Position numbers and translations under genes: made by a program. Under the pieces are notes generated by a model. It was not told where the DNA came from. It made no database searches and saw only the letters and a program-made list of their open reading frames with translations. A DNA stretch of 64,000 nucleotides from Escherichia coli (GTDB lineage Bacteria; Pseudomonadota; Gammaproteobacteria; Enterobacterales; Enterobacteriaceae), in assembly GCF_016026235.1 (NCBI RefSeq), contig NZ_CP065613.1. One strand, 5' to 3'. Position 1 is the first letter of the stretch, and the number at the start of each line of letters is the position of its first letter. Of the stretch, positions 5,628-6,476 are shown one piece after another.

Positions 5628-6476
5628 ATGAACGGCTTACTTCGTATCCGTCAGCGTTACCAGGGGCTTGCCCAGAGTGATAAAAAACTGGCGGATTATC
5701 TGCTGCTACAACCTGATACGGCGCGCCATTTAAGCTCTCAGCAACTGGCCAACGAAGCCGGAGTCAGTCAGTCCAGCGTCGTGAAGTTCGCGCAAAAACT
5801 CGGCTATAAAGGTTTTCCGGCGCTTAAGTTGGCGTTGAGTGAAGCGCTGGCAAGCCAGCCGGAATCGCCCTCCGTGCCCATTCATAACCAAATCCGCGGT
5901 GATGATCCGTTACGGCTGGTCGGCGAAAAACTGATTAAAGAAAATACTGCCGCTATGTACGCAACGCTAAACGTTAATAGTGAAGAGAAACTGCATGAAT
6001 GCGTAACAATGTTGCGCTCTGCGCGGCGGATAATTCTGACCGGTATTGGCGCTTCGGGTCTGGTGGCGCAAAACTTTGCCTGGAAGCTGATGAAGATTGG
6101 CTTCAATGCTGCCGCAGTGCGCGATATGCATGCGCTACTCGCAACAGTACAGGCGTCGTCCCCTGACGATCTGTTATTAGCCATTTCCTACACCGGTGTA
6201 CGACGCGAGTTAAACCTGGCGGCAGATGAGATGCTGCGAGTGGGCGGAAAAGTGCTGGCGATTACCGGCTTTACTCCGAATGCCCTGCAACAGCGTGCTT
6301 CTCATTGCCTGTATACCATTGCCGAAGAACAAGCGACAAACAGTGCTTCAATCTCTGCTTGTCACGCTCAGGGAATGTTAACGGATTTGCTGTTCATTGC
6401 GCTGATTCAGCAGGATCTGGAACTGGCACCAGAACGTATTCGTCATAGTGAAGCGCTGATGAAAAAACTGGTCTGA
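5628..6476 (+). CDS. yfhH: RpiR/MurR-family transcriptional regulator (HTH + SIS domain), function uncharacterised
   Basis: Track ORF 5556..6476; start moved to MNGLLRIRQRY (282 aa) by recognition; N-terminal HTH and C-terminal SIS sugar-phosphate-binding domain. Confidence 0.85.
   Translation: MNGLLRIRQRYQGLAQSDKKLADYLLLQPDTARHLSSQQLANEAGVSQSSVVKFAQKLGYKGFPALKLALSEALASQPESPSVPIHNQIRGDDPLRLVGEKLIKENTAAMYATLNVNSEEKLHECVTMLRSARRIILTGIGASGLVAQNFAWKLMKIGFNAAAVRDMHALLATVQASSPDDLLLAISYTGVRRELNLAADEMLRVGGKVLAITGFTPNALQQRASHCLYTIAEEQATNSASISACHAQGMLTDLLFIALIQQDLELAPERIRHSEALMKKLV

What the first reader, a model, noticed from the sequence alone, without database searches (positions are those of the whole stretch)
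5628..6476. Orphan RpiR/MurR-family regulator yfhH with no adjacent sugar-phosphate catabolic operon
HTH-SIS regulators normally sit beside the sugar-phosphate pathway they control. Here the neighbours are pgpC (divergent), tadA, mltF and a ferredoxin-like gene, so the ligand and regulon are not obvious from context. Given mltF two genes away, a cell-wall-derived sugar (MurNAc-like) is one hypothesis.
Basis: inference. Interest (0 to 1): 0.3.

Follow-up and report, generated by a model that had tools for sequence, protein, structure and literature searches.

The report
MurR-like regulator orphaned by operon deletion
E. coli yfhH is a real, strongly conserved sugar-phosphate regulator that looks orphaned only because Escherichia deleted the cell-wall-sugar (MurNAc) operon that sits beside it in most related bacteria, which gives this uncharacterised gene a testable ligand, DNA site and history.

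Summary

The orphan status is explained by a deletion. In about 49 of 76 informative Enterobacteriaceae species, including Salmonella and Citrobacter, yfhH is divergently adjacent to a MurNAc-6-phosphate etherase gene (murQ family). In 41 or more of them a PTS EIIBC gene follows, then pgpC. The 208-bp E. coli pgpC-yfhH spacer is the deletion scar. It keeps the PTS 3' stub (5420-5507) and the control region (5526-5627); about 2.2 kb is missing.

Two palindromes, GGAAT-N5-ATTCA at 5526-5540 and 5558-5572, lie 32 bp apart. The pair is conserved in 69 of 80 species. The same motif stands beside 37-42% identical homologues linked to murQ, anmK or nagZ genes, as far away as Rhizobium.

MurR's ligand-contact residues and recognition helix are kept. 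yfhH is under strong purifying selection in Escherichia (dN/dS 0.017).

Best reading: a MurNAc-6-P-sensing, MurR-type repressor that outlived its operon. Its present E. coli targets (itself, perhaps pgpC-tadA) are inferred.

The parts
5628..6476 (+). yfhH CDS, 282 aa: N-terminal RpiR-type HTH (HTH_6) plus C-terminal SIS phosphosugar-binding domain
   Evidence: It is 34% identical to E. coli MurR. The SIS domain matches the MurR structure 7en5 at E 5.6e-28. dN/dS within Escherichia is 0.017.
5526..5540 (.). Predicted YfhH operator site 1, GGAATTTTTAATTCA (palindromic arms GAAT/ATTC)
   Evidence: Exact GAAT-N5-ATTC match. PWM score 21.0 bits. 15/15 columns invariant among 6 Escherichia sequences, while the inter-site spacer is only 7/17 invariant. 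Found paired with site 2 in 69/80 species.
5558..5572 (.). Predicted YfhH operator site 2, GGAATATAAAATTCA, 32 bp from site 1; overlaps promoter-like -10 hexamers on both strands
   Evidence: 22.1 bits; 13/15 invariant. Promoter-like hits: + strand TAAAAT 5564-5569 and - strand TATATT 5565-5560.
5508..5525 (-). Deletion junction. About 18 nt replace about 2174 bp (Citrobacter L012 2723-4896). Possibly includes a relic of the murQ2 start codon.
   Evidence: Poorly conserved within Escherichia (10/18 invariant).
5420..5507 (-). Relic of the 3' end (about the last 35 codons) of the PTS EIIBC gene that precedes pgpC in other genera. The core 5459-5507 is 45/49 identical to Citrobacter.
   Evidence: The same stub is kept in five to six independent PTS-loss lineages. 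Third-codon entropy falls to 0.52-0.66 in the last 30 codons of intact genes. 44/49 columns invariant within Escherichia. It probably carries a pgpC promoter or translation-initiation signals; this is inferred.
5595..5610. Decayed CRP-like site, TGTTGTCGCCACTATT (my hand count from the and sequences: 4/10 to TGTGA-N6-TCACA)
   Evidence: The homologous position (-34/-35 from the ATG) scores at least 7/10 in 39/42 species that have murQ2+PTS2, and in 0/27 species without, E. coli included.
4784..5419 (-). pgpC (TTG start). In operon-bearing genera it begins 3 nt after the PTS stop codon; in E. coli it lies about 107 bp downstream of operator site 1.
4223..4726 (-). tadA (essential tRNA deaminase), downstream of pgpC on the same strand
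6532..6792 (+). yfhL, YfhL-family 2[4Fe-4S] ferredoxin. It has its own conserved TATAAT (6491-6496) followed by a GC-rich discriminator in the 55-bp spacer.
   Evidence: The spacer is 58-59 bp in most species.

Best explanation
YfhH is a MurR-type repressor. It is the ancestral Enterobacteriaceae regulator of a divergently transcribed operon that encodes a MurNAc-6-phosphate etherase (murQ family, here 'murQ2') and a PTS EIIBC permease ('PTS2'), and that runs straight into pgpC-tadA.

In the ancestor of Escherichia, about 2.2 kb was deleted. This removed almost all of murQ2 and PTS2. The regulator, its two operators and the last ~35 codons of PTS2 were left in the 208-bp pgpC-yfhH spacer. E. 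coli instead carries the unlinked, patchily distributed murR-murQ-murP module.

Shown here: the deletion scar; the conserved operator pair; the conserved ligand-pocket residues and recognition helix; strong purifying selection on yfhH.

Inferred mechanism: YfhH, probably as a tetramer like MurR, binds the two GGAAT-N5-ATTCA palindromes 32 bp apart, which overlap the divergent core promoters. It releases them when MurNAc-6-P, or a close 6-phospho-amino-sugar, occupies the SIS pocket.

Inferred present role in E. coli: autoregulation, plus control of leftward transcription that now reads directly into pgpC-tadA. This last step is the weakest.
For: Family and pocket.
- The architecture is HTH_6+SIS.
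- The nearest solved and characterised relative is E. coli MurR.
- Of 14 MurR residues that contact MurNAc-6-P (PMC9177960), 9 are identical in YfhH (S143, K156, H168, I186, S187, Y188, S241, S274...). Another 3-4 are conservative.
- These positions are equally invariant in 47 species with the operon and 27 without it.
- The recognition helix SQSS(V/I)VKFAQKLG is shared with MurR but not with AlsR or YebK.

Genomic context.
- 41 or more species have a full murQ2 and PTS2 between pgpC and yfhH. 7 have murQ2 only. Salmonella enterica has both.
- murQ2 passes the MurQ equivalog model (421 bits against a cutoff of 302) and is 55% identical to E. coli MurQ.

Deletion scar.
- Window 5420-5507 aligns with the PTS2 3' end. 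Window 5526-5627 aligns with the yfhH-murQ2 control region.
- 0 of 5426 E. coli genomes carry murQ2-PTS2.

Operators.
- The only two exact GAAT-N5-ATTC matches in 64 kb are 32 bp apart upstream of yfhH.
- The pair is present in 69/80 species with invariant arms.
- They score 21-22 bits, against a next-best 13 bits, which is shuffle level.
- Sites are 15/15 and 13/15 invariant in Escherichia, against 7/17 for the spacer between them.
- The same palindrome scores 16-20.6 bits in control regions of 37-42% identical homologues next to murQ/PTS, anmK-murQ, nagZ-like or murQ-ABC genes, in Serratia, Rhizobium and unnamed organisms.
- E. coli murR-murQ has two related sites at the same 32-bp spacing.

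Selection.
- dN/dS is 0.017 in Escherichia at dS 0.73, no higher than in operon-bearing lineages.

Replacement.
- E. coli-type MurR is patchy. It occurs in Citrobacter sp. Awk 4 and C. sedlakii, whose yfhH-linked operon is also degraded.
Against: - No binding, ligand or expression experiment exists for YfhH.
- In E. coli the ancestral -10 hexamers between the two sites and the CRP-like site have decayed. The leftward promoter may therefore be weak or dead, and pgpC may rely only on an element in the PTS2 stub.
- A regulator that controlled only itself would not be kept at dN/dS 0.017, so a real target is still missing.
- Only about 380 kb of E. coli DNA could be scanned for further sites.
- K156 and H168 are conserved across the whole MurR-like clade, so they do not prove MurNAc-6-P specificity.
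- PTS2 is only 38% identical to MurP and falls below the MurP model cutoff, so its substrate is not proven.
Confidence: 0.62

Rival explanations
1. The main job of YfhH in E. coli is to control unlinked genes: a regulon elsewhere on the chromosome, perhaps in cell-wall recycling or amino-sugar metabolism. The local sites serve only autoregulation.
For: Strong purifying selection persists without a linked operon in Escherichia and in Klebsiella/Raoultella. Pocket residues are kept in 27 operon-less species. Local promoter elements have decayed.
Against: No site of 16 bits or more was found in the 64-kb window, or in 300 kb of K-12 covering dcw, ampD, ampG, pgpA, nagBACD/nagE, nagZ, nagK, anmK and mpl, or in murR-murQP. 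About 92% of the genome was not scanned.
Confidence: 0.3
2. YfhH and MurR cross-talk. YfhH backs up MurR at murQP, or MurR binds the near-consensus yfhH operators, so that both respond to MurNAc-6-P as one circuit.
For: The recognition helices are nearly identical. Both loci have two sites 32 bp apart, with the ATTCC half-site facing the etherase gene. 5425 of 5426 E. coli genomes carry both systems.
Against: The MurR operators score below 8 bits with the YfhH matrix. Published work reports that a murR deletion alone derepresses murQP and speeds growth on MurNAc (as summarised in PMC9177960), so YfhH does not substitute at native levels.
Confidence: 0.15
3. YfhH mainly controls the downstream ferredoxin gene yfhL, through read-through or a site in the spacer.
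For: yfhH-yfhL adjacency with a 58-59-bp spacer holds in most of the 76 species. No terminator-like site lies between them.
Against: yfhL has its own conserved TATAAT with a GC-rich discriminator in the spacer. There is no YfhH-type site there. Salmonella enterica and Klebsiella oxytoca have 3.2 kb inserted between the two genes. YfhL-family ferredoxins occur widely without yfhH (PMC2984482).
Confidence: 0.12
4. yfhH in E. coli is a functionless relic on its way to becoming a pseudogene.
For: Its cognate operon is gone. A knockout is viable and has been used as a neutral marker (PMC2909356).
Against: dN/dS is 0.017 over dS 0.73. The ORF is intact in all Escherichia species sampled and the region is present in 5425 of 5426 genomes. 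The operators are invariant while their flanks drift. The pocket residues are kept.
Confidence: 0.04
5. One reading: YfhH is tied functionally to mltF, two genes away, and senses a product of that lytic transglycosylase.
For: MltF produces anhydro-muropeptides, which after recycling yield MurNAc-6-P (established pathway; PMC9177960 introduction).
Against: No YfhH-type site lies upstream of mltF. The mltF-tadA-pgpC block has the same synteny in all species, with or without the operon. Proximity is therefore explained by shared ancestry of the region.
Confidence: 0.05

Closest known systems
E. coli MurR (YfeT), repressor of murQP, RpiR/AlsR family
   Same: The domain architecture is the same. 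It is the best characterised and solved match (SIS E 5.6e-28). The phosphate-binding serines and K, H, Y and S contacts are kept. The recognition helix is almost identical. Both have two operator sites 32 bp apart in a divergent spacer next to an etherase gene. A CRP(-like) site accompanies the catabolic promoter in operon-bearing species, as reported for murQP.
   Different: Identity is only 34% and the NCBIfam equivalog is separate (PRK11557 versus PRK15482; YfhH scores 171 bits against the 408 cutoff of the MurR model). The operators are closer to a perfect GGAAT-N5-ATTCC palindrome than MurR's own. In E. coli the adjacent etherase/PTS genes are deleted. YfhH is broadly conserved in Enterobacteriaceae, whereas E. 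coli-type MurR is patchy.
YfhH orthologues beside murQ2-PTS2 in Salmonella, Citrobacter, Enterobacter, Kosakonia and others
   Same: They are 75-86% identical proteins with the same operators, the same pocket residues and the same flanking genes (pgpC, yfhL).
   Different: They retain the etherase and permease genes and a CRP-like site. E. coli has only the scar. As far as the searchable literature shows, these orthologues are also uncharacterised.
Other RpiR-family phosphosugar regulators (AlsR/RpiR, HexR/YebK, RccR, NanR)
   Same: HTH_6+SIS architecture, effector-released DNA binding and adjacency to the regulated pathway.
   Different: Identity is 19-23%. The recognition helices and several pocket residues differ, as do the effectors (allose-6-P or ribose-5-P, KDPG, ManNAc-6-P).

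Membership tests
RpiR/MurR family transcription factors | N-terminal HTH_6 DNA-binding domain plus C-terminal SIS domain | tested here: met
   Pfam HTH_6 1-77 (105 bits) and SIS 128-258 (112 bits). NCBIfam PRK11557 at 570 bits.
MurR-type (MurNAc-6-P-responsive) regulators | SIS pocket residues that bind the 6-phosphate and the sugar, as in MurR structures 7en5/7en7 | tested here: met
   S143, S187 and T/S189 (phosphate); K156, H168, Y188, R192, S/A241 and S274 are kept. Differences: L143I, G145A, T175A and T281V/M. This rests on alignment only, not on a structure with ligand.
MurR-type (MurNAc-6-P-responsive) regulators | Gene adjacent to a MurNAc-6-P etherase (murQ) gene that it regulates | tested here: not met
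   Not met in E. coli, where no murQ is adjacent. Met for the orthologues in about 49 other species and for distant homologues. E. coli retains relics of the operon.
MurR-type (MurNAc-6-P-responsive) regulators | Two neighbouring inverted-repeat operators in the divergent control region | tested here: met
   Sites at 5526-5540 and 5558-5572, 32 bp apart, conserved. The murR-murQ spacer has the same spacing. Binding itself was not tested.
MurR-type (MurNAc-6-P-responsive) regulators | MurNAc-6-P binds and weakens DNA binding; tetrameric protein | not testable with these tools
   Needs ITC or EMSA and SEC or AUC, as done for MurR in PMC9177960.
E. coli MurR orthologous group (NCBIfam PRK15482) | Score above the equivalog cutoff | tested here: not met
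   171 bits against a cutoff of 408. YfhH is a paralogous lineage, not MurR itself.

The most novel reading that the evidence does not exclude
The Escherichia deletion did more than orphan the regulator; it rewired it. A MurNAc-6-P-responsive control region now sits about 110 bp upstream of pgpC-tadA. Cell-wall turnover signals could therefore tune phosphatidylglycerol synthesis and an essential tRNA-editing enzyme. That new link would be why yfhH, its ligand pocket and both operators remain under strong selection.
Probability: 0.2. Interest if true: 0.6.

Novelty: new member of a known kind. Interest (0 to 1): 0.4.

Why it matters
yfhH is one of the remaining E. coli K-12 transcription factors with no known function. 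This analysis gives it a concrete candidate effector (MurNAc-6-P), a defined operator (two GGAAT-N5-ATTCA sites) and an evolutionary reason for its odd context. A few simple experiments could settle all three.

It also predicts that in Salmonella, Citrobacter, Enterobacter and many other genera the MurNAc etherase pathway beside yfhH is controlled by YfhH rather than by E. coli-type MurR. That bears on how peptidoglycan recycling is described in those pathogens.

More generally, it is a clean example of a regulator that outlives its operon under strong selection. Such cases are useful for studying how regulatory circuits are rewired.

Tried and rejected
- Literature: 18 papers mention yfhH. 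None gives a function or links it to murQ. Jaeger & Mayer 2008 (PMC2566201) is not held, so the published MurR operator sequence could not be compared directly.
- NsrR: a site near yfhH is cited second-hand (PMC7527575). No AANATGCATTT half-site with 2 or fewer mismatches occurs in 5300-6000. The consensus was recalled from memory, so this is weak.
- Rfam: no RNA family in 4700-7600 except ohsC.
- Chimeric ORF: the 45-aa ORF 5380-5517 (-) fuses the murQ2 ATG relic to the PTS2 C-terminus. Its start codon is not conserved in other Escherichia, so it was rejected as a gene.
- Cross-scoring MurR operators with the YfhH matrix gave low scores.
- Targeted scan of 300 kb of K-12 around peptidoglycan-recycling genes found nothing of 16 bits or more. 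The best intergenic hit was 12.5 bits, in nagB-nagE, which is chance level.
- Simple sigma-70 scan: no convincing promoter for pgpC in the PTS2 stub. Manual searches for sigma-E or sigma-32 motifs were inconclusive.
- Structure prediction was not run, because sequence matches to solved MurR were already decisive for the fold.

Full report
**What is there**

Window 5628-6476 (+) encodes a 282-aa protein with an RpiR-type HTH (HTH_6, residues 1-77) and a SIS domain (128-258). It passes the NCBIfam equivalog PRK11557. The window is E. coli chromosome. The 2.8-kb region around the gene is present in 5425 of 5426 complete E. coli genomes. RefSeq calls the gene yfhH, which in K-12 is still a 'putative' regulator. 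It differs from K-12 YfhH by one residue, M278 for V278.

The other three E. coli family members sit beside their pathways. The observation that yfhH is an exception is therefore correct.

**What the literature says**

Eighteen searchable papers mention yfhH and none assigns it a function:
- It is listed among uncharacterised RpiR-family factors (PMC4797297, PMC9308461).
- A knockout is viable (PMC2909356).
- One paper speculated about a link to pgpC (PMC6055005).
- RNA polymerase holoenzymes with sigma-32 and sigma-E gave genomic SELEX peaks in the pgpC/yfhH spacer (PMC5493296).
- An NsrR site is cited second-hand (PMC7527575).

No paper connects yfhH with murQ.

**Closest characterised relative**

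By sequence, the best solved and characterised match is E. coli MurR, the MurNAc-6-phosphate-responsive repressor of murQP (SIS domain E 5.6e-28; 34% identity overall). I mapped the 14 MurR residues that contact MurNAc-6-P (PMC9177960) onto YfhH:
- Kept: the phosphate-binding S146, S190 and S192 (as S143, S187 and T189), and also K159, H171, I189, Y191, S244 and S277.
- Conservative: K195 becomes R.
- Changed: L143I, G145A, T175A and T281M/V.

K and H are kept across the whole MurR-like clade, so they show clade membership rather than fine specificity. The recognition helix SQSS(V/I)VKFAQKLG is nearly identical in YfhH and MurR. It differs in AlsR and YebK.

**The key result: orthologous loci**

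A scan of one genome per species returned 80 loci. All are Enterobacteriaceae, with 75-99% identical YfhH. The block mltF-tadA-pgpC / yfhH-yfhL-acpS-pdxJ-recO is the same everywhere. The pgpC-yfhH distance is not: about 208 bp in Escherichia but about 2388 bp in most genera.

In Citrobacter werkmanii the extra DNA holds two genes transcribed away from yfhH:
- The first is a MurNAc-6-P etherase. It scores 421 bits on TIGR00274 (cutoff 302) and is 55% identical to E. coli MurQ.
- The second is a PTS EIIBC permease. Its best model is MurP, but below the cutoff, and it is 38% identical to E. coli MurP.

The permease stop codon lies 3 nt before the pgpC start.

Species counts:
- 41 or more species have both genes full length.
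- Seven have the etherase only, with a stub or fragments of the permease.
- About 27 have neither.

Salmonella enterica has both.

**E. coli carries the scar**

- Window 5420-5507 aligns with the last ~35 codons of the permease gene. The core 5459-5507 is 45/49 identical to Citrobacter.
- Window 5526-5627 aligns with the yfhH-etherase control region.
- About 18 nt (5508-5525) replace about 2174 bp.

All six Escherichia sequences share this structure. None of 5426 E. coli genomes carries the lost genes, while 5425 carry E. coli-type murQ. E. coli-type MurR is patchy outside E. coli. It occurs in Citrobacter sp. Awk 4 and C. sedlakii, the two Citrobacter in the set whose yfhH-linked operon is also degraded. 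This suggests replacement of the native module by an acquired one. That step is inferred from few cases.

**Operators**

The alignment of the yfhH upstream regions shows two blocks that stand out from variable flanks:
- GGAATTTTTAATTCA at 5526-5540.
- GGAATATAAAATTCA at 5558-5572.

Each is a GAAT-N5-ATTC palindrome, and they lie 32 bp apart, about three helical turns.

- They are the only exact matches in the 64-kb window.
- The pair, spaced 31-33 bp, is present in 69 of 80 species with fully invariant arms.
- With a matrix built from all species they score 21.0 and 22.1 bits. The next best hit in the window is 13.0 bits, which is shuffle level.
- Within Escherichia, where flanking genes have dS of about 0.73, site 1 is 15/15 invariant and site 2 is 13/15. 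The 17 nt between them are 7/17 invariant.
- The sites persist in Klebsiella and Raoultella, which lack the operon.

The same palindrome recurs next to 37-42% identical homologues in unrelated contexts:

| Locus | Neighbouring genes | Score (bits) | Context call |
|---|---|---|---|
| Unnamed organism | before murQ-PTS | 19.9 | 52 |
| Serratia sp. L9 | before murQ-PTS, beside a perfect CRP site and near nagZ-like and namZ genes | 19.8 | 65 |
| — | in an anmK-murQ-MFS spacer | 16.0 and 11.8, 31 bp apart | 67 |
| Rhizobium | in a murQ-ABC locus | 20.6 | 53 |
| — | beside a GH3 gene | 19.4 and 20.6 | 64 |

A motif that travels with the regulator gene across such distances is good comparative evidence that it is the binding site. 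Actual binding is inferred.

The E. coli murR-murQ spacer has two related sites (GACTCAATGATTC and GGATATATGATTC) at the same 32-bp spacing. They score poorly with the YfhH matrix.

**A second signal tracks the operon**

A CRP-like site (TGTGA-N6-TCACA, at least 7/10 matches) lies at a fixed position, 34-35 nt before the yfhH ATG, in 39 of 42 species with both genes. It is absent from all 27 species without them, E. coli included. The homologous E. coli sequence at 5595-5610 matches only 4/10 by my own count of the sequence shown. This parallels the reported control of murQP by MurR and CAP. It shows relaxed selection on the catabolic promoter after the deletion.

In operon-bearing species, near-consensus -10 hexamers lie back to back between the two operators. 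In Escherichia these positions have drifted. A simple scan instead finds -10-like hexamers on both strands inside site 2.

**Is the orphan alive?**

Yes.
- dN/dS for yfhH is 0.017 within Escherichia. It is 0.027-0.037 in Citrobacter and Enterobacter (operon present) and 0.027 in Klebsiella/Raoultella (operon absent). Neighbouring pgpC and yfhL range from 0.022 to 0.074 across the four groups.
- The 14 pocket positions are as invariant in the 27 operon-less species as in the 47 others.
- The only Escherichia-specific change is A241S, which matches MurR's S244.

The protein, its pocket and its operators are therefore all maintained.

**What it regulates now**

This is the open part.

*Autoregulation* is likely, because the sites overlap the yfhH promoter region.

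*Leftward transcription.* The ancestral operon ran into pgpC-tadA. In E. coli the control region now lies about 110 bp from pgpC, so leftward transcription, if it survives, would enter pgpC-tadA directly. Against this, the old -10 and CRP-like elements have decayed.

*The permease stub* seems to hold its own element:
- It is retained in independent permease losses.
- Synonymous variation drops in the last 30 codons of intact genes (entropy 0.52-0.66 against 0.85-1.3).
- It is 44/49 invariant in Escherichia.

*yfhL* has its own conserved TATAAT and GC-rich discriminator and is separated from yfhH by 3.2-kb insertions in some species.

*Unlinked targets.* A targeted scan of 300 kb of K-12 around dcw, ampD, ampG, pgpA, nagBACD/nagE, nagZ, nagK, anmK and mpl, plus murR-murQP, found no site of 16 bits or more. 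The rest of the genome could not be scanned, so an unlinked regulon remains a serious rival.

**Comparison and membership**

YfhH works like MurR in every feature that could be checked by sequence. It is not MurR itself: it scores 171 bits against the 408-bit cutoff of the MurR equivalog. In E. coli it also fails the 'adjacent murQ' criterion, but only because of a documented deletion.

It is best filed as a new member of the known MurR-type kind. It is the broadly conserved Enterobacteriaceae lineage, which E. coli happens to show in orphaned form.

**Verdict**

The finding is real. The orphan status has a clear evolutionary explanation.

Interest is moderate. This is not a new kind of system. 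It does turn an uncharacterised K-12 regulator into a directly testable one, and it predicts who controls the MurNAc etherase genes in Salmonella, Citrobacter and Enterobacter.

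Noticed in passing
window 5459-5507 (- strand); L017, L028, L029, L030, L032, L043: Lineages that lost the PTS gene independently all kept its last ~37 codons next to pgpC. In intact genes the last 30 codons have unusually low third-position variation. This suggests a promoter or translation signal for pgpC-tadA embedded in the coding end of the upstream gene.
   Followed up: partly
window 5380-5517 (- strand): A 45-aa ORF fuses a relic of the etherase start codon in frame to the PTS C-terminal hydrophobic segment and overlaps the pgpC start. Its ATG is not conserved in other Escherichia, so it is probably not a gene.
   Followed up: yes
window 6491-6496 and the yfhH-yfhL spacer 6477-6531: The yfhL ferredoxin gene has its own perfectly conserved TATAAT followed by a GC-rich discriminator (GCCCGCCC) across genera. 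That is the kind of discriminator often linked to stringent control.
   Followed up: partly
L086 6888-10065; L061 5888-9066; also L062, L079, L085: In Salmonella enterica, Klebsiella oxytoca and some others, a 3.2-kb cassette is inserted between yfhH and yfhL. It carries a LysR regulator, an MFS transporter and an ApbA/PanE-like reductase.
   Followed up: no
L070 and L075, between pgpC and yfhH (L075 3627-4871): Two species have a 414-aa MFS-type membrane protein gene, in the same orientation as yfhH, in place of the etherase/PTS pair.
   Followed up: partly
L026 versus L025: A record titled Chryseobacterium sp. 18061 carries a typical Enterobacteriaceae pgpC-yfhH-yfhL locus, with the same upstream sequence as Citrobacter sp. 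18056 from the same study. This is likely a mislabelled or contaminated assembly.
   Followed up: no
proteins P0131 and P0157: Fragments of YfhH-like proteins carry misleading public names: 'Sialic acid utilization regulator' in Klebsiella pneumoniae and 'triphosphoribosyl-dephospho-CoA synthase' in Serratia marcescens.
   Followed up: no
YfhH residue 241 (window 6348-6350): All six Escherichia sequences have Ser at position 241, where the other 68 genus representatives have Ala. The equivalent MurR residue S244 touches the lactyl group of MurNAc-6-P.
   Followed up: partly
window 7389-7465 (+): The OhsC antitoxin sRNA (Rfam RF02495, 100 bits) of the shoB/ohsC type I toxin-antitoxin pair lies between yfhL and acpS.
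   Followed up: no
L092 4714-4733: In Serratia sp. L9 a perfect CRP palindrome (TGTGATAATCATCACG) sits directly beside the GGAAT-N5-ATTCA site upstream of murQ. The locus also holds nagZ-like and namZ genes, a fuller MurNAc-utilisation cluster than in Enterobacteriaceae.
   Followed up: no
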